Source: Candidatus Omnitrophota bacterium
GTDB lineage: Bacteria > Omnitrophota > Gorgyraeia > Zapsychrales > Zapsychraceae
NCBI GenBank assembly: GCA_023247445.1
Contig: JAHFGL010000009.1
Location: 1 to 63,177 of the forward strand
Direction of reading: 5' to 3'
Length of the DNA stretch: 63,177 nt
The notes under the pieces are model-generated. The model did no database searches. It saw only the letters and a list, made by a program, of their open reading frames with translations, and had not been told where the DNA came from. Positions 2,939 to 62,538 of the stretch are shown here, in pieces. Numbering within the stretch: position 1 is the stretch's first letter; each line of letters opens with the position of its first letter. Made by a program: the position numbers and the translations under genes.

Positions 2939-3824
2939 TCTCGTTTTTCGTCGCTTCGTCCACGTTCTGCTTCTTTAATTCTTTAATTTTTTCGATAACC
3001 TCTGTTAACGGTTCATTAAATGGGTGGTCTGGATAAGTTTTTATAAATTTTTCATAAATAGAAATGGGCAAATCAAAATTTCCCATATTCTTAATTGATA
3101 CCGTATTAATGGCCTTTACAATATTTCCCGTGTTACGGGGATCAGGATATTTAATAAGCAAATCTCCAAAAGTATTAACCGCATCAGACCAACGCTTTTT
3201 GGCCATATAGCAAGTAGCTAAAAGTCTCAAAGAATTATATTCCACTAAAGATTTTGGGTATTGATTGATCATTTTTCGATAATAGTCAATGGCGCTGGCG
3301 AGGGCAACCTTGGCTTGTTCCGTATTCTTTTGATCCATATGGAATTTAGCAATCAAAATAGGGACATGAAGACCCAACCCAGATAAAGGATAATCTTGTT
3401 CGATCCTATGATAGGTTTTTAAAATATTAACGGGATCTTTCTCTAAGGTATAACTGCGTACAATTTCAGATAATGCTTCTAGCCCGACGGGATTTTCCTT
3501 AGAATAATTATTAACAATCGACTCAAATTTTTCTCTGGCTCCCTTATAATCTTCTCGAACCATAGAAATGCGTCCCAAAAATAAGTGGGCAAGAGGAACC
3601 AACTGTGAATTTGGGAACCGCTCAATGAATCGTTTATATTCATCGGTTACCTGCTTATAAGTCGCTGGGGGGGCTGCTTTTGGATCAGCAATGATAGTTT
3701 TAAATTGTTGATTAATTTTCCACATCGCCTTTTCAGCAGGATATTCTCCATTAATATCAAGAAAAGATAAAATAGCGAAAACACTGATCAATATTACTAT
3801 GTAAGCATAAATAATTTTTTTCAT
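2922..3824 (-). CDS. TPR-repeat protein with N-terminal signal anchor
   Basis: N-terminal hydrophobic helix followed by repeated TPR-like A/Y/L-spaced helices. ATGA overlap with the upstream gene and overlap with the kinase gene indicate an operon. Confidence 0.6.
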   Translation of the reverse strand: MKKIIYAYIVILISVFAILSFLDINGEYPAEKAMWKINQQFKTIIADPKAAPPATYKQVTDEYKRFIERFPNSQLVPLAHLFLGRISMVREDYKGAREKFESIVNNYSKENPVGLEALSEIVRSYTLEKDPVNILKTYHRIEQDYPLSGLGLHVPILIAKFHMDQKNTEQAKVALASAIDYYRKMINQYPKSLVEYNSLRLLATCYMAKKRWSDAVNTFGDLLIKYPDPRNTGNIVKAINTVSIKNMGNFDLPISIYEKFIKTYPDHPFNEPLTEVIEKIKELKKQNVDEATKNENESQK

Positions 3825-11673: not shown

Positions 11674-11689
11674 AAATTAATTTCCTTCT

Positions 11690-11758
11690 CGTCATCCTGA
11701 GCGCAGCGAAGGATCTCTTCGGAGATCCTTCAGTCGCTTTCGCTCCTTCAGGATGACG
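11690..11758. repeat. 69-nt intergenic imperfect palindrome
   Basis: CGTCATCCTGA (11690-11700) pairs perfectly with TCAGGATGACG (11748-11758). GAAGGATCTC (11708-11717) pairs with GAGATCCTTC (11722-11731) around a TTCG loop. Confidence 0.7.
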
Positions 11759-11764
11759 GCAAGA

Positions 11765-12856: not shown

Positions 12857-12887
12857 AAAATTTAAAGATGATTCCGGGATACATCAC

Positions 12888-12942
12888 CAAACAAAAAGGA
12901 CACGTACCAATTAAAATCTTTTTCAAAAAAAGGTACGTGTCC
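12888..12942 (-). terminator. hairpin with U-tract after the PEP-CTERM beta-propeller gene (may also be an operator)
   Basis: Perfect 11-bp inverted repeat GGACACGTACC (12898-12908) / GGTACGTGTCC (12932-12942) with a 23-nt loop. On the minus strand it is followed by TTTTTGTTT. Confidence 0.5.
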
Positions 12943-12966
12943 CAATTTTACTATGTAGAACGGAAA

Positions 12967-29828: not shown

Positions 29829-30779
29829 TTAATTCCATTTCGTTTTGAAATATTCTACAGTTTTCTTTAATCCTTCTTCGAAATTGACCGTTGGTTTGTA
29901 TTTAAGAATATTCTTAATTTTTGAAATATTTGCTTCTGTTTTAAAAACATCGCCGGCGCGCTTGGGTAATAATTTTGGTTTAATATTTTTACCCATAATT
30001 TTGTTAAGCACCGCTACCAATTCTAAAACGGTATTATCTTGTCCATTGGCGACATTAAATACTTGATGTTTAATTCCCGGCGTTGTGGCGGCTAACACAT
30101 TAGCTGAGATGACATTTTCAATATAGGTAAAATCTCTAGACTGTTTGCCGTTTCCAAAAATAGGCGGAGGTTCATTGTTCATAATGCAATGGATAAATTT
30201 AGGAATAACAACGGCATATTCATCATCTAAAGCTTGTTTGGGACCAAAAACATTAAAATAACGTAAACATACAGTTTCAATATTAAAATGCTCTGAAAAA
30301 ATTCGGCAATAATACTCTCCTGTTAATTTACTGAGCGCATAAGGCGAAATAAGAAGCGGATAATCTGTTTCTACCTGTGGAAATTTTGTTGTATCACCAT
30401 AAACCGAACTTGATGAAGCAAAAACCAAACGCTTAACTTTCTTTTTGGCGGCAGCCGTAAGCATTGTTAAAACGCCATTAATATTAACATCATTATAACT
30501 GTAGGGATCTTCCATTGATTTTGGTACAGAGCGCAGTGCCGCTTGAAGCGAAATATAATCAATGCCTTCACAGGCCTTTTCACAGGCTGCGCGGTCACGA
30601 ATATCACCTTTGATAAGTTCAAATTTTGTTTTCCCAAATCCTTTTGTAAATTCTAAATTTTCTTTTTTCCCAGAGAAAAAATTATCTAAAACACGGACAT
30701 AATGTCCTTTTTTAATTAGATATTCAGCAATACTGGAGCCAATAAAACCTGCCCCACCTGCGATTAAAAACCGACTCAT
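29829..30779 (-). CDS. NAD-dependent nucleotide-sugar epimerase (UDP-GlcNAc/Glc 4-epimerase-like)
   Basis: GGAGFIGS Rossmann motif, YALSK catalytic motif, extended SDR length. Confidence 0.9.
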   Translation of the reverse strand: MSRFLIAGGAGFIGSSIAEYLIKKGHYVRVLDNFFSGKKENLEFTKGFGKTKFELIKGDIRDRAACEKACEGIDYISLQAALRSVPKSMEDPYSYNDVNINGVLTMLTAAAKKKVKRLVFASSSSVYGDTTKFPQVETDYPLLISPYALSKLTGEYYCRIFSEHFNIETVCLRYFNVFGPKQALDDEYAVVIPKFIHCIMNNEPPPIFGNGKQSRDFTYIENVISANVLAATTPGIKHQVFNVANGQDNTVLELVAVLNKIMGKNIKPKLLPKRAGDVFKTEANISKIKNILKYKPTVNFEEGLKKTVEYFKTKWN

Positions 30780-30794
30780 AAATTTCCTTTCTTA

Positions 30795-31583
30795 TTATAG
30801 ATATCTATAAATGTATTCAGGTAAATGATACTCAATATTTGTAAGGACATGTCCTAGAATTTTTGAATGCGATTGTGTTAATAGTTCCTCCGCACGTTTG
30901 ACAATCCCACGTTGTGTCCGTCCGGCTTGAATAACCATAAAGACACCTTCTGTCTGGGCGCCAATAATTCCAGAATCTGTTACAGGAATAATCGGGGGGG
31001 TATCAATCAAAACAAATTCAAATTTACTTTTCATATCAGATATAAATTTCTTCATCGCATCTGAAGCTAAAAGTTCAGCTGGGTTATCAGGAACAGCCCC
31101 ACAAGCCATAAAGGCTAAATTGTCATATTCCTTGACATTAAACATTACATCTTCAATTGTGGCTTTGCCGCTTAAAACCTCTGTTAATCCAACGGGTTGA
31201 CTTACACCAAGATATTTGGCCAGACGACCGCGTCTTAAATCAGCATCAATTAAAACGACCTTGGGTTTAATAACAGCCTGCGCCATCGAAATCGCTAAAT
31301 TTAAGGATGTAACGGTCTTCCCTTCCGAATGCAAAGAGCTCGTGATAACAAATACATGTGGCGGCTTTCCTTTATTCATTGAAAGGATATTCGTACGCAG
31401 AATTTTATATTGCTCCGTAATTAGCGCCTTAGGATCAAAATGAGCAACAATCGAGGCATCCACTTTAGACTCACCAACTTTCTTAACAATGAATGGATCG
31501 CGATCCTCTATTTTTGAAATTTTTTCAATACGACTAAATCGTTCTTCAGCCGCTTTCTTAAGAGCATTGGTAATTTTTCCCAT
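30795..31583 (-). CDS. BY-kinase-type tyrosine autokinase / chain-length co-polymerase ATPase
   Basis: Walker A SLHSEGKT, Walker A-prime VLIDADLRRG, Walker B VLIDTPP, and a Tyr-rich tail EYHLPEYIYRYL. Confidence 0.85.
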   Translation of the reverse strand: MGKITNALKKAAEERFSRIEKISKIEDRDPFIVKKVGESKVDASIVAHFDPKALITEQYKILRTNILSMNKGKPPHVFVITSSLHSEGKTVTSLNLAISMAQAVIKPKVVLIDADLRRGRLAKYLGVSQPVGLTEVLSGKATIEDVMFNVKEYDNLAFMACGAVPDNPAELLASDAMKKFISDMKSKFEFVLIDTPPIIPVTDSGIIGAQTEGVFMVIQAGRTQRGIVKRAEELLTQSHSKILGHVLTNIEYHLPEYIYRYL

Positions 31584-31657
31584 GATTAAATATCCCTTCC
31601 TAGTTGTATTAATTAATTCTTAAAATCTTTGATTACATCATTAAAAAAACGAACAAT

Positions 31658-32512
31658 TTAAACTGAAGCCTCTAGCTTCTTTTTTACATCTGTGATGCCA
31701 CCAATTTGCGTCATAGGTGATTCACCAATGACTTCAGTAATCAACGCCTTATCAATTTCTGGTTTTTCATAAATATATCCTGATAATAATGCGCTGTCAC
31801 AAATCTGATTGACGATCCGAGGAACTCCTCGGCTGAATTGACAAATTAAATCAAGAGCCTCATCGGTAAAAAATTTCCGATCTGATCCACTGGCAACTTT
31901 CAATCGATGCTCAATATAATCTTTTGTGTCTTCTCTATTTAACGGGGTTAATTGAAAAAATACGGCAATCCGCTGACGTAACTGTTCCAACTTTGGCAAA
32001 GCTAATTTCGCTTTTAATTCTGGTTGTCCGATAAAAAGAATTTGGATGAGTTTTTCATTTTCTGTTTCTAAATTTGATAACATGCGAACTTCTTCTAAGA
32101 CGGATGGACTTAAGTTCTGCGCTTCATCAATGATTAAAACCACATTATTATCCCGACGCAATTGTTCGATTAAATAACCATTAAGCTGAGCATGCAATTT
32201 CGCCTTTGATCCCGGCTCATACTCGACTTCTAGATCATCTAAAATCGTCATCAAAAGATCTTTGCCACTCATATGGGTGTTGGTAATAAGGGCGACTTGC
32301 GTCCTGGTGTCTAATTTATTAAGAAGGGCACGACAAACGGTTGTCTTCCCAGATCCGATGTCCCCGGTAATGACCACAAAACCTTTACGCTCTTTGATGG
32401 CATAAAGTAGCGTGCTCAAAGCCTCGGTATGCTTACTGCTCGAGAAAAAGAACTTCGAATTGGGTGTTAAATTAAAAGGCGGCTCTTTAAATCCATAAAA
32501 ATTGTAATACAT
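31658..32512 (-). CDS. ExeA-like AAA ATPase (PEP-CTERM locus secretion ATPase type)
   Basis: VVITGDIGSGKTT Walker A and LIIDEAQNL Walker B. Position between the Wzz-like and kinase genes matches described PEP-CTERM loci. Confidence 0.85.
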   Translation of the reverse strand: MYYNFYGFKEPPFNLTPNSKFFFSSSKHTEALSTLLYAIKERKGFVVITGDIGSGKTTVCRALLNKLDTRTQVALITNTHMSGKDLLMTILDDLEVEYEPGSKAKLHAQLNGYLIEQLRRDNNVVLIIDEAQNLSPSVLEEVRMLSNLETENEKLIQILFIGQPELKAKLALPKLEQLRQRIAVFFQLTPLNREDTKDYIEHRLKVASGSDRKFFTDEALDLICQFSRGVPRIVNQICDSALLSGYIYEKPEIDKALITEVIGESPMTQIGGITDVKKKLEASV

Positions 32513-32532
32513 TCAAACACCTCTTTATAAAA

Positions 32533-33828
32533 TTAGCGGATAAAATTCATAATCGCTGTTGTTAAAATAACAGTGATACCCCCCGCAATAACCACCAAAC
32601 TATAAAACCATCCCAGCCGTTCCCGTTCCATTTGGATGCTATGCTGAGTATTAATTTTTGATATCGCCCCTAAAAGCGGCATACCTAAAAAGTTTTTAGC
32701 TTCTTCAACATCAATAAAAGATTTATCTAAGAATTCAGCTGCGACAACTAATCCAAAACCAATTAACCCACCGGCGAATAATCCCATTAGAGCAACAAGG
32801 ATTTTATTAGGTTTAATCGGACTTAAGGGAATACGGGGAGGATCTAAAACAGTGTATCTGGTTCCTTCTTTGGAAGATTGTAATCGTTGTGTTATTTTGG
32901 CTGTTTCCAATCGTTGTAAAAGCGTATTGTAAATCTGTGTATTAACATCCACATCCCGGGCCATGACACCATCAAGTCTGTCAATGAGCATGACCTTATA
33001 CAAATCTTTTTCAGTACCTTCGGCTTTGGTTTGAGACGCCTTAACTGATCCGCCACCTTCGATTTTATCTAAAGCGGTTTTAATTTCATCGATAATTCTA
33101 TTCGTCGACTGTGTGGCTAAGTGACTACTTTTGGTATACTCTAAATTTTCCTTTTTCAATTCTTCCTTCTTAGCCGCGATCTGCTCTCGTAATTGTTTTA
33201 CGCGAGGATGTTCATCTGTTGAATCGACCAAGAGCGCATCGAGCGCATCTTGCAGCTTAGCAATTTCGGCAGATTTGATTTTACCTTGATAAAGCTTTAA
33301 TTGTTCTTCAATAAAAGTGATGGCATCTGATGTTTCTTTATTTTGGACATCAACGTTTCTTTCAATAAAGATTTCAGCGACATTACGGACGACTGCTTGA
33401 GTTTTCTCTGGGGTATCGCCAATATAAGAAAGCTCAATAATATTCTGTCCTTTTAATTTGATAATAATATCTTTTCTAATTCCTAAAATCGCCGCCTCTA
33501 ATTCTTGCGGAGTTTTAATATCTTGATCCATATTTAAGCGTCGGACTAAAGTGACAAGACTATTCCACCCAAGCATCGATTCTCGGATGCCCGCCATTCT
33601 TTGCATAATGGTACTTGAAACAGCAAGTTTATCAAAAAGAGGGTTATCACTTTTACCTTCTTCGATCAGAAGAATCGTGGATGAAAGATATTTTTTAGGG
33701 AGAATAATTCCCATGCAGACGCCTAAAATTAACCCTGCATATAAAGGAACAAGGAACAAATCTTTGCGGCGGAAAAATATTTTCAAGAAATTCATCGGTG
33801 TCAAAGGAGTTTGTGTTGATTCCATCAT
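32533..33828 (-). CDS. Wzz-type chain-length determinant protein
   Basis: N- and C-terminal TM helices flank a coiled-coil periplasmic region. The track ORF begins at a TTG (33864); the first ATG pair is at 33828/33825. Confidence 0.8.
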   Translation of the reverse strand: MMESTQTPLTPMNFLKIFFRRKDLFLVPLYAGLILGVCMGIILPKKYLSSTILLIEEGKSDNPLFDKLAVSSTIMQRMAGIRESMLGWNSLVTLVRRLNMDQDIKTPQELEAAILGIRKDIIIKLKGQNIIELSYIGDTPEKTQAVVRNVAEIFIERNVDVQNKETSDAITFIEEQLKLYQGKIKSAEIAKLQDALDALLVDSTDEHPRVKQLREQIAAKKEELKKENLEYTKSSHLATQSTNRIIDEIKTALDKIEGGGSVKASQTKAEGTEKDLYKVMLIDRLDGVMARDVDVNTQIYNTLLQRLETAKITQRLQSSKEGTRYTVLDPPRIPLSPIKPNKILVALMGLFAGGLIGFGLVVAAEFLDKSFIDVEEAKNFLGMPLLGAISKINTQHSIQMERERLGWFYSLVVIAGGITVILTTAIMNFIR

Positions 33829-33880
33829 GATCAGTATTTCCTTTCTGCTAAAAATTGCTAACAACTAAAATTAAAGAAGA

Positions 33881-39071: not shown

Positions 39072-40349
39072 CTATTTAAAGAATGTTTTTAACGTTAGGA
39101 TCAACTTATCCAAATCTTTTCTGGTATGCATGCTCGATATAAAAAACGCCTCAAGATCAGCGGGTGGCCAATAAATCCCCGCCTTTAATAAATGATGAAA
39201 GAGTTTTGTGTAACGCTCTGCCCCAGCGGCTTTTTGCGCATCATCATAATTTAAAACTGCTTCTTGGCGAAAACGGATACTCATCATCGATCGGTAATAA
39301 GATAAATGGGCTTCAATATTATGTTCTTTAAAATAGGTGTTGATCGTATTGGCTAATTCTTCCGATTTTTGATTTAGAATGCGATAGAAATTCTTATTTA
39401 GAAATTTTAAAGTCGCAAGTCCCGTTTTCATGACAACCGGATTTCCAGCAAATGTTCCGGCCTGATAAACACCGCCAAGTGGAGCCAAACATTCCATAAT
39501 ATCCTTTCGTCCACCGTAAGCGCCAACGGGAAAACCTCCTCCAATAATTTTCCCTAAACACGTTATATCCGGAATGATATTCATCTCTGTTTGAACACAC
39601 CCCGCGTGGGTGCGAAAGCCCGTCATGACCTCATCAAAAATAAGAACAATATTATTTTTCTTAGTCAACTCACGTAAAGCTCGTAAAAATTCCATGTTCG
39701 CTGGAATAACACCCATATTTCCCGCAACAGGTTCAATAATAACACAGGCAATTCGATCTTTAAATTGTGTAATTGTTTTTTCTAGGATCTCTACATTATT
39801 ATAGGGAAGGCTGATCGTGTTTTGAATATGGCTTTGCGGAATGCCAAGGCTCGAAGATTCTTTAAGTTGCGCGACACCGGAACCTGCCTTAGCTAAAAGA
39901 TCATCAAAATGGCCATGATAACAACCGTCGAACTTAATCAACATTTCTTTATTTGTAAATCCGCGCGCCAAACGAATCGCGCTCATCGTCGCTTCTGTTC
40001 CCGAGTTGACAAAACGAATTAAATCAATGGATGGTACATGATCAACGATAAATCGCGCCAAATCAATTTCTTCACGGGTGGTCACGCCAAAACTGATTCC
40101 CTTCTCCGCTGTTTTCTTCGCCGCCAAAATAGCGTTACGTGGCGCATGTCCTAAAACCAACGCCCCCCATGATAAACAATAATCGGTGAACTCATTGTTA
40201 TCATAATCATAAAGCTTGGAGCCACGGCCATACTTCATCACAATAGGATTTCCACCGACAGCACGAAACGACCGTACAGGGCTATTGACGCCGCCGACCA
40301 TGACGTCTTTGGCCTGTTGAAAATACTTATCTGAGTTGTTTGTTCTCAT
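39072..40349 (-). CDS. hemL: glutamate-1-semialdehyde 2,1-aminomutase
   Basis: Full-length HemL similarity (GGVNSPVRSF, FDEVMTGFR, PLP lysine in CLGKIIGGG). Confidence 0.95.
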   Translation of the reverse strand: MRTNNSDKYFQQAKDVMVGGVNSPVRSFRAVGGNPIVMKYGRGSKLYDYDNNEFTDYCLSWGALVLGHAPRNAILAAKKTAEKGISFGVTTREEIDLARFIVDHVPSIDLIRFVNSGTEATMSAIRLARGFTNKEMLIKFDGCYHGHFDDLLAKAGSGVAQLKESSSLGIPQSHIQNTISLPYNNVEILEKTITQFKDRIACVIIEPVAGNMGVIPANMEFLRALRELTKKNNIVLIFDEVMTGFRTHAGCVQTEMNIIPDITCLGKIIGGGFPVGAYGGRKDIMECLAPLGGVYQAGTFAGNPVVMKTGLATLKFLNKNFYRILNQKSEELANTINTYFKEHNIEAHLSYYRSMMSIRFRQEAVLNYDDAQKAAGAERYTKLFHHLLKAGIYWPPADLEAFFISSMHTRKDLDKLILTLKTFFK

Positions 40350-40359
40350 CGTGAAAATT

Positions 40360-40400
40360 GAAGATAGAAAATGGACAATGGATGAAAATAGATAGTGGAA
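40360..40400. repeat. left arm of the inverted repeat bracketing the four-helix-bundle ORF
   Basis: GAAGATAGAAAATGGACAATGGATGAAAATAGATAGTGGAA. It is loosely 7-nt periodic and is the imperfect reverse complement of 40814-40862. Confidence 0.7.
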
Positions 40401-40405
40401 TTAAT

Positions 40406-40771
40406 CTAAAACTTCTTCCAATTCTGCATTAATTTATAAATCATTGCACCTGTTTGTTGGTATCGACAACTAATTTCCTCAAATCTATGTCTGGATAAAT
40501 AATTTGATTTATATGCGAATTCTAACCACGTTAGAGTTTCTTCTGAAGATCCCAAAGCATCATTAAGATGTCGCGTAAAAACATCGGGATATCGACGTTT
40601 AGCAAAACCTTCCCGAATATTAACTGGGACTGACCGAGAAGATCTTCTAATTTGATCTACCAAAGAATAAGTTTCTTCCCTTGGGAATCTTTTTGTTTCA
40701 TCAAAGACTTCTATAGCTAAGTTAAATGATAGGTTATAAACTTCTAAATCATTACATTTTTGTATCACCAT
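40406..40771 (-). CDS. four-helix-bundle protein (23S rRNA intervening-sequence protein family)
   Basis: LEVYNLSFNLAIEVFDETKRFPREETYSLVDQIRRSSRSVPVNIREGFAKR is the signature region of this family. Confidence 0.85.
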   Translation of the reverse strand: MVIQKCNDLEVYNLSFNLAIEVFDETKRFPREETYSLVDQIRRSSRSVPVNIREGFAKRRYPDVFTRHLNDALGSSEETLTWLEFAYKSNYLSRHRFEEISCRYQQTGAMIYKLMQNWKKF

Positions 40772-40813
40772 TGTTTTCTCCTTTCATCGCATCGTTATCA
40801 TTCAAATCAATTG

Positions 40814-40862
40814 TCTATCTTCCACTCTCATCCATTTTCTATCATCTATCTTCCATCCTCCT
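40814..40862. repeat. right arm of the inverted repeat bracketing the four-helix-bundle ORF
   Basis: TCTATCTTCCACTCTCATCCATTTTCTATCATCTATCTTCCATCCTCC. Its reverse complement shares GAAGATAGA, AGAAAATGGA, ATGGATGA and GTGGAA blocks with the left arm. Confidence 0.7.
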
Positions 40863-40864
40863 CT

Positions 40865-41821
40865 CTATATCCATTTTAAAACCTCTTTCGCGTAATATGA
40901 AATTATAATATCAGCGCCCGCGCGTTTAATCGCCGTTAAACTTTCAATAACATTATCCTGTTCGTTAATCCATTTCTTGACGGCCGCAGCCTTAATCATC
41001 GAATATTCACCGCTGACACTATAAGCCACGATAGGTTGCGTTAATTCGCGTCGCAGTAAAGCAATAATATCCAAATACGCGAGCGCAGGTTTAACCATAA
41101 TAAAATCAGCACCCTCAGAGACATCTTGCTGGGCCTCTTTTAATGCTTCACGAGAATTGGCATAATCCATCTGATAAGTTTTACGATCACCAAACTGTGG
41201 GGAGGAATTAACGGCATCACGAAATGGGCCGTAAAAAGATGAGGCATATTTAACCGCGTACGACATAATTGGAATATTTTTATAGCCGCCATGATCTAAA
41301 TCTTCCCGAATCTGCTTAACGCGATAATCCATCATATCCGATGGAGCAACGATATCCGCCCCAGCCTGTGCATGAACAAGCGCCATCTTCCCTAATAAAG
41401 GAATGGTTTTATCATTATCAACCGTTTTGTTGTGAACAACTCCACAATGGCCATGATTCGTATATCCACACAAACAAACATCGGTGATCACTAAAAATTG
41501 CGGAAATTCTTTTTTAATGGCTTTGATCGCCTTTGGAATTATTCCTGATTCATTATAAGCGCCACTACCCAAACTATCTTTTGTGGATGGAATACCAAAA
41601 AAAATGCCGGCCTTACCACCTAGCTTTTGATACTGTTCGAGTTCTTTAAGCAGCTGATCCATCGAAAACCGATAAATCCCGGGCATCGACTCAATTGTTT
41701 CTTTTTTATTCTTTCCTTCTAACACAAAAAATGGCTGGATCAAATCTTCTTTCGTGAGCCTTGTTTCCCTCACAATGCTACGAATGACGTCATTTCCCCT
41801 TAGTCGACGAAATCTACCCAT
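40865..41821 (-). CDS. hemB: porphobilinogen synthase (delta-aminolevulinate dehydratase)
   Basis: Full-length HemB similarity, including the active-site lysine context MVKPALAYLD and APSDMMDYRV. Confidence 0.95.
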   Translation of the reverse strand: MGRFRRLRGNDVIRSIVRETRLTKEDLIQPFFVLEGKNKKETIESMPGIYRFSMDQLLKELEQYQKLGGKAGIFFGIPSTKDSLGSGAYNESGIIPKAIKAIKKEFPQFLVITDVCLCGYTNHGHCGVVHNKTVDNDKTIPLLGKMALVHAQAGADIVAPSDMMDYRVKQIREDLDHGGYKNIPIMSYAVKYASSFYGPFRDAVNSSPQFGDRKTYQMDYANSREALKEAQQDVSEGADFIMVKPALAYLDIIALLRRELTQPIVAYSVSGEYSMIKAAAVKKWINEQDNVIESLTAIKRAGADIIISYYAKEVLKWI

Positions 41822-43865
41822 AAATTAAAACCTCATTTTTATAACCAGCGTCCGCTAAAGCTTTACTCGTTAACGGTCCACGACTGATAATTCGCCAATG
41901 TTTAGGAATAGTAGAATAATCCGCTAAAAAATTTCTAACGGTTGATGGACTCGTAAAAAGTACTTTATCAATATTATCTTTCGGTAATGGACGCTTAACG
42001 GGCCTAATGTTTTCATAAATTGTTATTTCAAAAACGACGGCGCCCAACTTCGTTAATTCATTTTTTAAATATGGATTTGGTAACGATGATCGCGGGAAAA
42101 GAATATGCTTCCCCTTTAAATCTTTTTTTGCTTTGATCTCATTAAACAATCCTTCGCTTGTCTCAATTTTAGGAACTAATTCCGGTTCAAAACCATGTTT
42201 TATTAACTCTTCTCGCGTTCCGTGACCAATCACCCAAAAATTCTTTGTTTTAAGATTAGTCGTTGAATAATTCTGCTGGGCTAAGACTTTAAAGAAATTC
42301 TCTACGGCAAAACAACTCGTGAACAAAATCACGTCATGCCCAGAGAGGTCTTTGACTATTGACTCTTTTTGCTCATGGCTCAATGGCGCTTCTCTAATCT
42401 CAATCATAGGAAGATGCACCAAACGGCCTAGTGACTGATATTTTTCTGGATGGGCTCCTGTATACAAAATTGTTTCCTGATGGCAAGATTCTGTTTTATA
42501 AAAATTTACCGTCTCGCCAACAATAATGAGCACCGGAGCATCAAGTGGCTGGTCCTTAATCTTCTGCTCAATATCTTTAATTGTCCCTATCACAATTTTT
42601 TGATCAAGCCGTGTTCCCTTTGAAATGGCAATAACTGGGGTGGTCTCTTTCCAACGTACGTGTTTTAAAGATTTGATTATAACATCCAGTTTTGTTAAGC
42701 CCATTAAAAAGACAAGGGTTTCTACTTGCGGAATCGTTAAAAGATCCTCTGCTGAAGTTTCATCTTCCCCATGTGCACTAAGAAACGCAACCGATGAAGA
42801 AATCCCTCGCGCGGTCAGTGGAATTCCTAAATGCCCAGGGATGGCGGTTGCGGAACTAACCCCTGGGATGACATCAACATCAATGTGATACGCCCGTAAA
42901 TATTCAATTTCTTCAGCGCCGCGACCAAAAACGAGAGGATCACCGCCTTTTAATCGAACAACTCTTTTTCCTTCCATGGCTTTTTGTCGTAACAGTTTTG
43001 ACAATTCACTTTGCGGTAAGCTATGCGCACCTTTTCGTTTGCCGACGTAAATTTTCTCAGCTTTGGTCGCGTGGTTTAATAAATCCTTATGGGCTAAATA
43101 ATCATAAAAAACACACTCTGCTTCTTTCAAAGATTTGACACCTTTTATCGTAATCAAATCAGGATCACCTGGGCCAGCGCCAACCAAATAAACTTTTCCA
43201 TAATTGCGACGAATATCAATGGCCGCAAATAACTCTTTAAGATCATGATTTTCCGATCGACCCACGATCGCCAACTGCCCTTGGAGCGGTGTCGCTTCCC
43301 ACGGCATAATATCTTTAATCAAATGATCTAGCTTAAGTCTTTTAAGCGCCGCCGTTGCCACAATAATTCCATCACAAATGCCCTGGTCAATTAGTTTAAG
43401 CCGTTCTTCGATCGTCCCACGAATATTGATAACTTCAAACTGTGGGAATAATTCTTTAATCGATTTTTGTCGAACCAAACTGCTTGTTCCGATTTTTGCG
43501 CCTGGCTTTAATTCTCCTAATTTTGATTTACCAACAAAGGCGTCTGTGTCATCTAAACTTTTTGTCAAAGCAAAGATAGTTAAACCTTCTTTTAACTTTT
43601 TGGGAAGATCTTTGGCGCTATGAATGGCAACATCAATTTCTCTATTAAGTAAAGCGGCATCGATTGTATCCGTAAAAAAATCATCGGAAACGTTGGCCGT
43701 TAAGGGTGTTTTTTTATCTTGATCACCATTAGTTTTATACGTAGTGGCCTTAAAAGAAACACTAACTCCCTTTTGGTTCAGGAGGGATTTAATTTCCTCA
43801 ACTTGAACCAAAGCGAGATTACTTCCTCGAGATCCGACATTAATTATTTTGTTATGAGAAATCAT
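41814..43865 (-). CDS. tri-domain fusion: HemC-like (domains 1-2 only) / uroporphyrinogen-III C-methyltransferase / uroporphyrinogen-III synthase
   Basis: N-terminal part: VGSRGSNLALVQ...HSAKDLP...GTSSLVRQ...RGTIEERL. Middle part: VYLVGAGPGDPDLITIKG (SUMT). The C-terminal ~230 aa are HemD-like. Confidence 0.85.
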   Translation of the reverse strand: MISHNKIINVGSRGSNLALVQVEEIKSLLNQKGVSVSFKATTYKTNGDQDKKTPLTANVSDDFFTDTIDAALLNREIDVAIHSAKDLPKKLKEGLTIFALTKSLDDTDAFVGKSKLGELKPGAKIGTSSLVRQKSIKELFPQFEVINIRGTIEERLKLIDQGICDGIIVATAALKRLKLDHLIKDIMPWEATPLQGQLAIVGRSENHDLKELFAAIDIRRNYGKVYLVGAGPGDPDLITIKGVKSLKEAECVFYDYLAHKDLLNHATKAEKIYVGKRKGAHSLPQSELSKLLRQKAMEGKRVVRLKGGDPLVFGRGAEEIEYLRAYHIDVDVIPGVSSATAIPGHLGIPLTARGISSSVAFLSAHGEDETSAEDLLTIPQVETLVFLMGLTKLDVIIKSLKHVRWKETTPVIAISKGTRLDQKIVIGTIKDIEQKIKDQPLDAPVLIIVGETVNFYKTESCHQETILYTGAHPEKYQSLGRLVHLPMIEIREAPLSHEQKESIVKDLSGHDVILFTSCFAVENFFKVLAQQNYSTTNLKTKNFWVIGHGTREELIKHGFEPELVPKIETSEGLFNEIKAKKDLKGKHILFPRSSLPNPYLKNELTKLGAVVFEITIYENIRPVKRPLPKDNIDKVLFTSPSTVRNFLADYSTIPKHWRIISRGPLTSKALADAGYKNEVLIYG

Positions 43866-48401: not shown

Positions 48402-48481
48402 GGCTGTCAGCTTTCAGCTGTCTGCTATCAGTAGTCTTCAGCTGTAGGCTACTGATGACTGAAAGCTGATAGCTGAAAGCC
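48402..48481. repeat. heptad-periodic (CAGCTNT) intergenic palindrome, copy A
   Basis: CAGCTTT CAGCTGT CTGCTAT CAGTAGT ... followed by the imperfect reverse complement (CTACTGATGACTGAAAGCTGATAGCTGAAAGC). It fills the spacer between two minus-strand genes. Confidence 0.75.
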
Positions 48482-52254: not shown

Positions 52255-52330
52255 CAGCTTCCTGCTATCAGCTATCAGTTATCAGCAGCTGACAGCTACT
52301 GACGACTGATAGCTGAAGGCTGATAGCTTT
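52255..52330. repeat. heptad-periodic (CAGCTNT) intergenic palindrome, copy B
   Basis: CAGCTTC CTGCTAT CAGCTAT CAGTTAT CAGCAGC, then the inverted arm CTACTGACGACTGATAGCTGAAGGCTGATAGC. Confidence 0.75.
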
Positions 52331-60853: not shown

Positions 60854-60869
60854 CTTAAGATCTCCTTAA

Positions 60870-60947
60870 CAGCTGTCAGCTATCAGCTTTCAGCCTTCAG
60901 TAGCTGTAAGCTGCTGATAACTGAAAGCCGAAAGCAGACAGCTGATA
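60870..60947. repeat. heptad-periodic (CAGCTNT) intergenic palindrome, copy C
   Basis: CAGCTGT CAGCTAT CAGCTTT CAGCCTT CAGTAGC, then the inverted arm GCTGCTGATAACTGAAAGCCGAAAGCAGACAGCTGATA. It lies between the two transketolase subunit genes. Confidence 0.75.
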
Positions 60948-62465: not shown

Positions 62466-62538
62466 TGGGCCATGCAGGAGTCGAACCTGCTACCCAGTGA
62501 TTAAGAGTCACTTGCTCTACCAGGTGAGCTAATGGCCC
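62466..62538 (-). tRNA. tRNA-Lys (anticodon CUU)
   Basis: 73-nt cloverleaf folded by hand: acceptor GGGCCAT/ATGGCCC, D arm GCTC-ACCTGGTA-GAGC, anticodon arm AGTGA-CTCTTAA-TCACT, T arm GCAGG-TTCGACT-CCTGC, discriminator A. CCA is not encoded. Confidence 0.93.

What the first reader, a model, noticed from the sequence alone, without database searches (positions are those of the whole stretch)
40350..40864. IVS-like cassette: four-helix-bundle ORF bracketed by heptad-periodic inverted repeats, inserted between hemB and hemL
The 121-aa ORF belongs to the family first found inside 23S rRNA intervening sequences. Here it sits inside a protein-coding operon, with the hem fusion and hemB upstream and hemL downstream. 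It is flanked by 40-50-nt low-complexity arms (40360-40400 and 40814-40862). The arms are imperfect reverse complements sharing GAAGATAGA, AGAAAATGGA, ATGGATGA and GTGGAA blocks, with one arm carrying an extra 7-nt unit. In the polycistronic RNA the arms could form a long stem enclosing the ORF. That is the geometry RNase III uses to excise rRNA IVSs. The element may therefore be a mobile or processable RNA cassette. The three cargo-less heptad palindromes elsewhere in the window have the same architecture without an ORF.
Basis: partly seen in the sequence, partly recalled or inferred. Interest (0 to 1): 0.65.

Follow-up and report, generated by a model that had tools for sequence, protein, structure and literature searches.

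The report
IVS-type gene cassette inside hem operon
A small four-helix-bundle gene of the kind first found inside 23S rRNA intervening sequences sits between hemB and hemL, bracketed by 7-nt-periodic inverted repeats, and the same gene-plus-arms design recurs in about 90 homologous loci, so it appears to be a widespread, largely undescribed RNA-level cassette.

Summary
A 121-aa PF05635/TIGR02436 ORF (40406-40771, minus strand) lies between hemB and hemL. A purine-rich 5' arm (40804-40862) and a pyrimidine-rich 3' arm (40353-40402) flank it. Both arms are heptad-periodic (P=0.0025 each), neither folds alone, and together they pair (-43.5 kcal/mol).

The five closest hemB-hemL junctions lack the gene, so it is a lineage-specific insertion. 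Conversely, two related MAGs carry a homologous cassette where this window has a 15-nt spacer.

The design is general. About 90 homologous loci from two protein clades have heptad inverted repeats around the ORF. Neighbours are co-directional (41/42 upstream, 38/43 downstream). Arm mismatches favour G.U on the sense strand (137 vs 76).

The Coxiella 23S IVS has the same GACAGAT heptads, and RNase III cuts its stem.

Best reading: an IVS-family cassette transcribed with the operon, whose arms form an RNase III-type stem. No cleavage evidence could be obtained for this locus.

The three ORF-less palindromes share the geometry but use a different heptad (TCAGCNN). Such arrays rarely carry the gene (2 of 120).

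Verdict: new variant of a known kind; interest 0.62.

The parts
40804..40862 (-). 5' arm on the transcript: purine-rich heptad array (AGGAUGG AAGAUAG AUGAUAG AAAAUGG AUGAGAG UGGAAGA UAGACAA). It starts about 3 nt after the hemB stop codon (40865-40867).
   Evidence: Inverted repeat; lag-7 periodicity P=0.0025; unstructured on its own, -0.2 kcal/mol; pairs with the 3' arm.
40772..40803 (-). Linker between the 5' arm and the ORF. It carries a Shine-Dalgarno sequence, AAAGGAG (40778-40784), 6 nt before the ATG.
   Evidence: Read directly from the sequence; it lies in the loop side of the stem in the MFE fold.
40406..40771 (-). 121-aa four-helix-bundle protein gene (23S rRNA intervening-sequence protein family).
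   Evidence: PF05635 E=6.9e-31; TIGR02436 1.3e-29; PDB 2GSC 5.6e-10 and 2RLD 1.1e-7. It scores below the cutoffs for bAvd (24.5 vs 40 bits) and the DGR Avd model (19 vs 80 bits).
40353..40402 (-). 3' arm on the transcript: pyrimidine-rich complement of the 5' arm. It ends 3-4 nt before the hemL ATG (40349).
40865..41821 (-). hemB (ALAD), the upstream host cistron. Its last codons AAA UGG AUA UAG are in register with the heptads.
   Evidence: PF00490 E=3.7e-146; sequence.
39072..40349 (-). hemL (glutamate-1-semialdehyde aminomutase type), the downstream host cistron. It has no Shine-Dalgarno sequence, and its start codon sits at the base of the stem.
   Evidence: PF00202 E=7.9e-66; 72-75% identical to the hemL that directly follows hemB in four relatives and 65% in the fifth (L135); sequence.
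48402..48480 (-). ORF-less heptad palindrome (GCUUUCA/GCUAUCA arms, about 8-nt loop) in a 102-nt spacer between co-directional genes.
   Evidence: (dG -40.8).
52255..52328 (-). ORF-less heptad palindrome of the same GCTWTCA type in a 99-nt spacer.
   Evidence: I3; dG -44.1.
60866..60942 (-). ORF-less heptad palindrome of the same GCTWTCA type in a 97-nt spacer.
   Evidence: (dG -50.0).
30780..30794 (-). Empty site: a 15-nt spacer (stop codon, then SD AAGAAAGGA, then ATG). Two related MAGs (L085, L087) carry a homologous ORF-plus-arms cassette of about 500 nt at the same junction.
   Evidence: Synteny by tblastn (65-79% flanking-gene identity); junction sequences.

Best explanation
The segment 40353-40862 is an IVS-family cassette, the same kind of element as the ORF-bearing intervening sequences of 23S rRNA. 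Here it is lodged in the hemB-hemL spacer of a protein-coding operon.

The cassette has four parts. A purine-rich array of degenerate heptads forms the 5' arm. A short linker carries the cassette's own Shine-Dalgarno sequence. The four-helix-bundle ORF follows. A pyrimidine-rich complementary heptad array forms the 3' arm.

No promoter or terminator of its own was detected, so it is probably transcribed as part of the hem operon. Neither arm can fold on itself because each is all-purine or all-pyrimidine. The two therefore pair across about 400 nt into an imperfect duplex of about 50 bp whose base touches the hemB stop codon and the hemL start codon.

By homology with the Coxiella IVS, RNase III most likely cuts this duplex. 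That would release the ORF RNA and separate the hemB and hemL messages. This would explain how such an insertion is tolerated in rRNA and in operons alike.

The cassette was gained in this lineage and is absent from relatives. On evolutionary time such cassettes appear and disappear between a stop codon and the next Shine-Dalgarno sequence. They also decay into ORF-less heptad hairpins.

Shown here: gene family, arms, periodicity, stem prediction, presence/absence in relatives, generality of the design, polarity relative to neighbours, G.U strand asymmetry.

Inferred: RNase III cleavage at this locus, translation of the ORF, and any role of the protein.
For: Family and anatomy.

Stem: the MFE fold pairs the arms. 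Each arm alone is unstructured. The duplex is -43.5 kcal/mol against -27.9 +/- 4.3 for shuffles and -35.9 for the antisense strand.

No terminator was found, and promoter-like hits were fewer than in shuffles.

Lineage-specific insertion: L002/L136, L133, L134 and L135 all have hemB followed directly by hemL without the ORF. In L135 the two genes overlap. The reciprocal case also exists: L085 and L087 carry a homologous cassette exactly between stop codon and SD where the window has 15 nt.

Generality: heptad inverted repeats flank the ORF in most of 47 loci of this clade (lag-7 self-match 0.6-0.97) and in most of 42 loci of the 2RLD clade. Heptad-array density is 150 per 267 kb in IVP loci, against 31 per 776 kb and 25 per 353 kb in controls.

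Dependence on host transcription: the upstream neighbour is co-directional in 41 of 42 loci and the downstream neighbour in 38 of 43, mostly with gaps of 20-160 nt. RNA-seq contigs from a Bacteroides run continuously through upstream gene, cassette and downstream gene.

RNA-level selection: the sense duplex is more stable than the antisense in 38 of 47 loci, p=4e-5. G.U outnumbers A.C 137 to 76, p=3.5e-5, and per locus 33 to 7.

Link to true IVS: the Coxiella 23S IVS has AGAAGA plus three GACAGAT repeats plus GACAGAA before its S23p ORF, and a 28-bp terminal stem. RNase III cut the IVS in vitro, and RACE mapped the IVS ends to the middle of that stem (PMC4990558). The consensus heptad found here is Y-A-G-A-N-R-W.

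Decay series: truncated ORFs lie between arms or beside a heptad array in L131, L126 and L132, and L089 406-552 holds an ORF N-terminal remnant between arms. L130 has a truncated ORF with no array detected.
Against: There is no RNA evidence for this locus. The only metatranscriptome from the same sample has no coverage. The Bacteroides data are assembled contigs and cannot show RNA ends.

The duplex z-score against composition-matched shuffles is moderate (-3.6), because any purine arm pairs fairly well with any pyrimidine arm.

The G.U excess could partly reflect strand-biased C-to-T mutation rather than selection.

The stems carry periodic mismatches: 62-66% Watson-Crick pairing at three of seven positions, with many A.A. 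They are therefore not ideal RNase III substrates.

I found no near-identical copy at a second site. P0083 occurs in one context across 23 contigs. Movement is therefore slow, and its mechanism is unknown.

The presence of an RNase III gene in this genome was not checked.
Confidence: 0.6

Rival explanations
1. The four-helix-bundle protein is a trans-acting factor for heptad repeats. It would recognise the conserved 4-nt core of its cognate heptads, as RNA or DNA, and control the processing, stability or spread of the many ORF-less heptad arrays. Its own gene sits inside one pair of target arrays, as RAYT transposase genes sit between their REP sequences. This does not exclude RNase III cleavage.
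For: The core C-A-G-A is conserved in sequence across many phyla, not merely paired.

Heptad type follows protein clade rather than host. It is TAGA/TGGA in the window clade, CAGA in the 47-62% identity clade across more than ten phyla, AATTGAC in the 2RLD clade, and AAAAGTW for a second divergent ORF in the same locus, L093.

The association is asymmetric. Nearly every ORF has arms, but only 2 of 120 GCTWTCA arrays carry an ORF.

ORF-less hairpins of the same heptad type lie close to cassettes (L085). They also occur elsewhere in Bacteroides transcriptomes.

Structural relatives form pentamers (2GSC and 2RLD each have five chains). The homologue bAvd is an accessory protein of the reverse transcriptase in diversity-generating retroelements (PMC10053308 and bioRxiv 10.1101/2023.10.23.563531, titles and abstracts only).
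Against: There is no binding data and no catalytic motif.

Co-inheritance of arms and ORF as one unit explains the clade-heptad correlation without any recognition.

In the window the ORF-less palindromes use a different heptad from the only ORF present.

No whole-genome census of ORFs against cognate arrays could be run.
Confidence: 0.25
2. The arms are DNA-level terminal inverted repeats of a transposon or MITE moved by a transposase encoded elsewhere. The RNA stem is incidental.
For: The element has inverted repeats, presence/absence polymorphism and ORF-less short forms.
Against: No target-site duplication is visible at filled versus empty sites.

There are no conserved terminal motifs; the arms vary in length by whole heptads.

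The polarity relative to transcription is strict: purine arm 5', neighbours co-directional in 41 of 42 loci.

The sense-strand G.U excess is not expected for a DNA signal.

No transposase lies in or beside the cassettes.
Confidence: 0.08
3. The gene is an old, functional member of the hem operon, for example a regulator of tetrapyrrole synthesis, and its flanks are ordinary spacers.
For: PF05635 genes lie next to hemB in several other lineages (L030/L045/L172a, L070/L180/L202/L172b, L051, L259).
Against: The five closest hemB-hemL junctions lack it.

The hemB-adjacent genes elsewhere belong to different protein clades (25-39% identity) and lie on different sides of hemB.

Homologues sit in unrelated operons, such as Topo VI B/PGM and glycosyltransferase/EpsH-EpsI.
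Confidence: 0.03
4. It is a remnant accessory gene (Avd) of a diversity-generating retroelement.
For: There are weak matches to bAvd (PF22296, 24.5 bits) and to the DGR Avd model (19 bits).
Against: Both scores are far below their cutoffs (40 and 80 bits). The called genes covering about 5 kb upstream and about 3.6 kb downstream of the ORF are haem-synthesis, patatin, DUF3568, glycosyltransferase, DUF2064 and cupin genes, with no reverse transcriptase.
Confidence: 0.02
5. The match between two low-complexity spacers is chance.
For: Purine-rich and pyrimidine-rich sequences pair fairly well even after shuffling (mean -27.9 kcal/mol).
Against: This ORF has the top flank-IR score of 54 window genes, and no control exceeds 22. 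Periodicity is P=0.0025 for each arm. The same design is seen in about 90 homologous loci.
Confidence: 0.01

Closest known systems
ORF-bearing intervening sequences (IVS) of 23S rRNA (Leptospira, Coxiella burnetii, Brucella; S23p / 23S_rRNA_IVP ORF)
   Same: The ORF family is the same (PF05635). Terminal inverted repeats enclose the ORF in a stem. The same GACAGAN-type heptamer repeats lie upstream of the ORF in Coxiella. Distribution among relatives is sporadic. RNase III excision is shown for Coxiella (PMC4990558).
   Different: The host transcript here is an mRNA operon (hemB-hemL), not helix 25 or 45 of 23S rRNA. The arms are longer (about 50-59 nt) and less perfect than the 28-bp Coxiella stem. 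The ORF here has a strong Shine-Dalgarno sequence inside the loop, whereas in Coxiella the putative SD is cut away.
REP/BIME/REPIN elements and their RAYT genes
   Same: Both are intergenic palindromes inside operons. Both show a large excess of gene-less copies over gene-bearing ones. In both, the associated gene is flanked by its cognate repeats in inverted orientation (from my own knowledge of Nunvar 2010 and Bertels & Rainey 2011).
   Different: RAYT is an IS200/IS605-type tyrosine transposase. PF05635 proteins have no known catalytic activity. The repeats here are arrays of degenerate heptads rather than a fixed REP sequence of about 35 nt.
Intergenic heptamer repeats (TAACTGA repeats of Beggiatoaceae, Cyanobacteria, Bacteroidetes; cyanobacterial STRR)
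   Same: Both are intergenic 7-nt tandem repeats with a CTGA/CAGA core. Both show indels in 7-nt steps between strains. Both have a patchy cross-phylum distribution (PMC4679880). The window's ORF-less palindromes contain TAACTGA units.
   Different: Those repeats were described as direct repeats near start codons. The paper does not mention PF05635 genes (0 occurrences of the relevant terms) and does not describe a palindromic, gene-enclosing arrangement.
Intercistronic RNase III sites of phage T7 and lambda early mRNAs
   Same: The functional logic is the same: a stem between cistrons that is cut to give separate messages (from my own knowledge).
   Different: Those are short local hairpins without an enclosed gene and are not heptad-periodic.
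bAvd, accessory protein of diversity-generating retroelements
   Same: It shares the homologous four-helix-bundle fold and forms pentamers.
   Different: There is no reverse transcriptase and no template/variable repeat here. Scores are below the family cutoffs.
23S_rRNA_IVP genes noted inside cas operons
   Same: A PF05635 gene lies between co-directional operon genes, for example between cmr3 and cmr2 in Pleurocapsa (PMC3936711).
   Different: That gene was interpreted there as a possible cas-associated function. No flanking repeats are mentioned in the passages I read.

Membership tests
PF05635 / TIGR02436 four-helix-bundle (23S rRNA IVS protein) family | Profile match above the curated cutoffs | tested here: met
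   PF05635 107.1 bits against 33.8; TIGR02436 102.6 bits against 24.
PF05635 / TIGR02436 four-helix-bundle (23S rRNA IVS protein) family | Four-helix-bundle fold and pentameric ring | not tested
   Supported only by sequence similarity to the solved members 2GSC (5.6e-10) and 2RLD (1.1e-7). No structure was predicted.
rRNA intervening sequence (IVS) | Inserted in a helix of the 23S (or 16S) rRNA gene | tested here: not met
   Rfam finds only one tRNA in the window. The flanks are hemB and hemL.
rRNA intervening sequence (IVS) | Terminal inverted repeats that form a stem enclosing the insert | tested here: met
rRNA intervening sequence (IVS) | Excised from the precursor by RNase III | not testable with these tools
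   There is no RNA coverage of this organism. Only assembled contigs are available for a Bacteroides homologue.
rRNA intervening sequence (IVS) | Sporadic presence among close relatives | tested here: met
   Absent from five related hemB-hemL junctions. Present in L085/L087 at a site that is empty in the window.
Transposon / MITE | Target-site duplication and defined conserved termini | tested here: not met
   No duplication is visible at filled versus empty junctions. There is no conserved terminal motif in seven aligned cassettes.
Transposon / MITE | Transposase in the element, or many near-identical copies | tested here: not met
   The only ORF is the 121-aa bundle protein. An identical protein (P0083) was found in a single context.
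DGR accessory protein Avd | Avd profile above cutoff, with an adjacent reverse transcriptase and TR/VR pair | tested here: not met
   NF033474 19.3 bits against 80; PF22296 24.5 bits against 40. The called genes covering about 5 kb upstream and about 3.6 kb downstream have no RT domain.
REP/RAYT system | Y1 (IS200/IS605-like) transposase flanked by REPs | tested here: not met
   The enclosed gene is PF05635, not a transposase.
Intrinsic terminator / attenuator | GC-rich short hairpin followed by a U-run | tested here: not met
   No terminator-like sites in 39900-41300.
Anti-phage defence protein families (PADLOC) | Match to a defence-system model | tested here: not met
   No families at E<=0.01.

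The most novel reading that the evidence does not exclude
PF05635 four-helix-bundle genes and intergenic heptamer repeats (TAACTGA/STRR-like arrays and hairpins) are two halves of one cross-phylum system. Each protein clade would recognise the 4-nt core of its own heptad. Its gene rides inside a pair of inverted heptad arrays that make an RNase III-cleavable stem on any host transcript, rRNA or mRNA. The far more numerous gene-less arrays would be its dependants or its decay products. This relationship would be analogous to RAYT-REPIN but would act through RNA structure. It would give a function to a very large 'hypothetical' protein family and to a class of repeats unexplained for decades.
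Probability: 0.3. Interest if true: 0.8.

Novelty: new variant of a known kind. Interest (0 to 1): 0.62.

Why it matters
PF05635/TIGR02436 is a very large family with no known function. This search alone gave 862 relatives at E<=1e-5. ORF-bearing rRNA intervening sequences have likewise lacked an explanation since the 1990s (Ralph & McClelland 1993, as cited in PMC3936711).

This locus and its relatives show that the IVS is not specific to rRNA. The same unit of gene plus heptad arms sits between cistrons of ordinary operons in many phyla. Its polarity is fixed and it shows signs of RNA-level pairing.

That links three separate literatures: rRNA IVS, four-helix-bundle or Avd-like proteins, and intergenic heptamer repeats. 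It also turns the question into simple experiments in tractable hosts such as Bacteroides thetaiotaomicron, whose 2RLD protein is encoded in such a cassette in a close relative.

There is a practical consequence too. These cassettes and hairpins probably break operon transcripts and metagenome assemblies, and they confuse annotation. For example, such genes have been reported as candidate cas-associated genes.

Tried and rejected
RNA evidence at the locus. Only one small metatranscriptome from the same sample exists, and it has no coverage. The DNA contigs are low-depth and add nothing.

RNA evidence elsewhere. L213 could not be sent to the run finder. The ANME-1 locus L099 had one run holding 4% of the words. 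The Bacteroides runs are kept only as assembled contigs. They show continuous transcription and extra copies of the arms, but no RNA ends.

Identical copies at several sites, as a sign of recent transposition. P0083 occurs in 23 contigs, all in one context. P0031 gave a gene map but no DNA.

Reverse association. Starting from GCTWTCA heptad arrays, only 2 of 120 loci have an adjacent PF05635 ORF. The claim that the window's ORF-less palindromes derive from such cassettes therefore stays weak.

Rfam found no known RNA family in the window apart from one tRNA.

Defence-system, terminator and promoter readings were all rejected.

Literature searches for heptad-flanked four-helix-bundle genes, and for the repeat sequences themselves, found no description beyond the Coxiella heptamers and the TAACTGA repeats. 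Ralph & McClelland 1993 is not held.

A conserved terminal motif was sought by aligning seven cassettes of the window's clade. None was found beyond the heptads.
Full report
**What is at the locus**

On the minus strand the window carries a hem operon:
- a PBG-deaminase / SUMT-methylase / UroS fusion (41814-43865);
- hemB (40865-41821, PF00490 E=3.7e-146);
- a 121-aa ORF (40406-40771);
- hemL (39072-40349);
- then DUF3568, glycosyltransferase and other genes.

The 121-aa ORF is a clear member of the 23S rRNA IVS protein / four-helix-bundle family. It matches PF05635 at E=6.9e-31 and TIGR02436 at 1.3e-29. Its nearest solved relatives are XCC0516 (2GSC) and a Bacteroides protein (2RLD). It is not a DGR Avd by the curated models, and it matches no PADLOC defence family.

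**The arms**

The spacers on both sides of the ORF are inverted repeats of each other. The arms 40353-40402 and 40804-40853 are 50 nt long and 72% complementary, with a 36-nt core at 78%. This is the longest inverted repeat within 1.5 kb in the whole window.

On the transcript the 5' arm is almost pure purine and the 3' arm almost pure pyrimidine. Each arm alone has essentially no structure (-0.2 and 0 kcal/mol). Together they give a duplex of -43.5 kcal/mol. Shuffled 3' arms give -27.9 +/- 4.3, and the antisense strand gives -35.9. The MFE fold of 40340-40880 pairs the arms (z=-2.97).

Both arms are heptad-periodic. Self-match at lag 7 is 0.63, against 0.53 or less at other lags, P=0.0025 each against shuffles.

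The flank-IR score of this ORF (34) is the highest of 54 genes in the window (median 16). It is also above all 53 hemB-flank controls (max 22).

The stem base lies about 3 nt after the hemB stop codon and 3-4 nt before the hemL start codon. The ORF has its own AAAGGAG Shine-Dalgarno sequence in the loop. hemL has none. No terminator-like site was found in 39900-41300, and the two weak promoter-like matches are fewer than shuffles give.

**Is the gene a fixed member of the operon? No.**

The closest hemB relatives (70-74% identity) are one Omnitrophota MAG and four metagenome contigs. All have hemB directly followed by hemL without the ORF.
- In L135 the two genes overlap.
- L134 has a perfect 22-nt palindrome in the spacer.
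- L133 has a GCTNNTN-heptad palindrome.
- L002 and L136 have a 19-nt inverted repeat.

This junction therefore collects different hairpin elements in different lineages.

The reciprocal case also exists. L085 and L087 are syntenic with window 29829-33864 (65-79% protein identity). They carry a homologous ORF-plus-arms cassette of about 500 nt exactly between the stop codon of one gene and the Shine-Dalgarno sequence of the next. The window has a 15-nt spacer there (30780-30794).

L085 also has an ORF-less heptad hairpin at a junction that is empty in both the window (20 nt) and L087 (22 nt). No target-site duplication is visible.

**The design is general**

I examined 51 genome loci encoding relatives of the window protein at 45-73% identity. 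They come from Omnitrophota, Planctomycetota, Desulfobacterota, Atribacterota, Acetothermia, Neomarinimicrobiota, Bacteroidota and even ANME archaea. Almost all have heptad-periodic inverted repeats around the ORF.

A second, distant clade was seeded with the 2RLD sequence and comes from Bacteroidota, Firmicutes, Treponema and others. It shows the same design with a different heptad, AATTGAC.

Heptad arrays are 8-14 times denser in these loci than in control loci.

Heptad type follows protein clade rather than host:
- TAGA/TGGA cores in the window's clade;
- CAGA in the 47-62% identity clade;
- GGTNAC in Neomarinimicrobiota;
- AAAAGTW for a second, divergent ORF in the same locus, L093.

No conserved terminal motif exists beyond the heptads, and arm length changes by whole heptads.

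**Signs that the stem matters as RNA**

The upstream neighbour is co-directional in 41 of 42 loci and the downstream neighbour in 38 of 43, mostly with gaps of 20-160 nt. The cassettes therefore sit inside transcription units in the sense orientation.

The sense-strand duplex is more stable than the antisense duplex in 38 of 47 loci (Wilcoxon p=4e-5).

In aligned arms there are 1418 Watson-Crick pairs. There are also 137 G.U pairs, which are compatible only with the sense RNA, and 76 A.C pairs, which are compatible only with the antisense RNA. The binomial p is 3.5e-5, and per locus the count is 33 to 7. A strand-biased mutation spectrum could contribute to this, so I treat it as supportive rather than conclusive.

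The averaged 5'-arm heptad is Y-A-G-A-N-R-W. The C-A-G-A core is conserved in sequence and 78-94% Watson-Crick paired. The other three positions pair only 62-66% and carry many A.A mismatches.

For the Bacteroides cassette (L217:1938-2407), RNA-seq contigs of two runs cover upstream gene, cassette and downstream gene without a break. The arms also occur in other transcribed contigs separated by only 22-51 nt, which are ORF-less copies.

**Link to true IVS**

The Coxiella burnetii 23S IVS contains an S23p ORF of this family. It is closed by a 28-bp stem of terminal inverted repeats. RNase III cut the IVS in vitro, and RACE mapped the IVS ends to the middle of that stem. Upstream of the ORF it carries AGAAGA, three tandem GACAGAT heptamers and a GACAGAA. 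The copy number of these heptamers varies between strains (PMC4990558).

That is the heptad of the largest clade found here. The window cassette is thus homologous to real IVS in both gene and arms, but sits in an mRNA.

PF05635 genes have been noticed before inside cas operons and in CPR rRNA insertions (PMC3936711; bioRxiv 10.1101/2024.02.27.582315). In the library I could search, I found no description of the heptad-arm rule or of operon-resident IVS-like cassettes. Ralph & McClelland 1993 was not available.

**The ORF-less palindromes**

The three in the window are at 48402-48480, 52255-52328 and 60866-60942. They are strong hairpins (-41 to -50 kcal/mol) in spacers between co-directional genes, and each is followed by a normal Shine-Dalgarno sequence. 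They are heptad-periodic (P<0.0005).

Their heptad (GCTWTCA, read as TCAGCNN) differs from the arms of the ORF. It contains the TAACTGA unit reported as intergenic repeats in Beggiatoaceae, Cyanobacteria and Bacteroidetes (PMC4679880).

A genome-wide scan for this heptad type returned 120 loci from many phyla:
- 28 have an inverted partner within 700 nt;
- 26 of those partners lie within 270 nt, which is too close for an ORF;
- only two (L328, L366) enclose a PF05635 ORF.

So the association is asymmetric. The gene almost always has heptad arms, but heptad arrays rarely have the gene.

Intermediates exist. Truncated ORFs lie between arms or beside a heptad array in L131, L126 and L132; L130 has a truncated ORF with no array detected. 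In L089 a hairpin loop still encodes the ORF's N-terminus. At least some hairpins are therefore decayed cassettes. Whether the window's three are decayed cassettes is open.

**Mechanism and confidence**

I am confident (about 0.9) that this is an IVS-family cassette gained in this lineage.

I put about 0.6 on the full reading. That reading is transcription with the operon, long-range arm pairing, and cleavage by RNase III that frees the ORF RNA and separates hemB and hemL messages.

The main alternative does not exclude the first. It holds that the protein is a trans-acting partner of heptad repeats, in a RAYT/REP-like relationship (about 0.25).

The DNA-transposon, fixed hem-gene, Avd-remnant and chance readings are each unlikely for the reasons given under rivals.

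**Limits**

- No RNA ends could be observed.
- The genome beyond 63 kb is unknown. This includes whether it has an rnc gene and whether it has other PF05635 genes.
- MAG taxonomy labels may be imperfect.
- The loci are not phylogenetically independent, so the p-values are indicative.

Noticed in passing
window 40349-40352 and 40353-40402: hemL has no Shine-Dalgarno sequence, and its AUG lies 3-4 nt from the base of the long stem. The genes that follow the three ORF-less palindromes all keep SDs. In relative L135, hemB and hemL overlap. The stem brings the hemB stop and the hemL start together, so downstream translation may depend on processing or on re-initiation across the stem base.
   Followed up: partly
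L030, L045, L172 (two), L051, L070, L180, L202, L259; window 40406-40771: PF05635 genes lie directly next to hemB in at least five apparently independent cases. They belong to different protein clades and lie on different sides of hemB, in Chitinophaga, Chitinophagaceae, another Bacteroidota lineage, Ignavibacteriales and this Omnitrophota. All 8 such ORFs found in 1.13 Mb of hemB-centred control loci were hemB-adjacent. This may be a mild hotspot or a coincidence.
   Followed up: partly
window 11674-11764: A 91-nt near-perfect hairpin of a different, non-heptad family (GTCATCCTGAAGGAGCGAAAGCGACTGAAGGATCTC..., -43.7 kcal/mol) lies between co-directional genes. A similar CATCCTGAGC...GTCGAAGGA core sits inside the hemB-hemL spacer of L133.
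   Followed up: no
window 12857-12966: A hairpin, GGGACACGTACC...GGTACGTGTCC, followed by a T-run. It looks like a terminator inside a run of co-directional genes.
   Followed up: no
window 41814-43865: A single 683-aa ORF fuses porphobilinogen deaminase, a tetrapyrrole (SUMT-type) methylase and uroporphyrinogen-III synthase domains. It overlaps hemB by 8 nt.
   Followed up: no
window 30780-30794 and 32513-32532: Short spacers (15 and 20 nt) that are empty sites. Related MAGs L085/L087 have a PF05635 cassette at the first. L085 has an ORF-less heptad hairpin at the second.
   Followed up: yes
L093:4577-5170: A second cassette lies in the same locus. It has a divergent four-helix-bundle ORF and quite different heptads (AAAAGTW). 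Arm type therefore goes with the cassette and not with the host genome.
   Followed up: partly
L328:1585-2140; L366:3700-4460 (-): Two PF05635 cassettes have TCAGCNN arms, the heptad type of the window's ORF-less palindromes. In L328 a copy of the 3' arm of about 65 nt lies on both sides of the ORF, so the 5' arm can pair locally or across the gene. In both loci the ORF's C-terminus is encoded by 3'-arm heptads.
   Followed up: partly
L083 and L084, 3' side of the ORF (about 3364-3470): The pyrimidine-rich 3' arm lies inside the next gene and encodes a Phe/Leu/Ser/Ile-rich hydrophobic N-terminus (for example MNAMLKIIVSIFFLSSIF...). The arm sequence may have been taken over as a signal or membrane segment.
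   Followed up: no
aligned arms of 46 loci and heptad profile of 39 loci: A.A is the commonest non-wobble mismatch (73 cases). Mismatches peak at the heptad's W position (28%), and many arm pairs read GAC in one arm against GTC in the other. This suggests stems punctuated by a mismatch about once per heptad, rather than continuous double-stranded RNA.
   Followed up: partly
gene map of the contig carrying P0031 (no DNA): Two PF05635 genes lie in one exopolysaccharide operon, one between two glycosyltransferase genes and one between EpsH (exosortase) and EpsI. A HicAB pair lies between them.
   Followed up: no
window 62466-62538: One tRNA gene on the minus strand. It is the only Rfam match in the window.
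   Followed up: no
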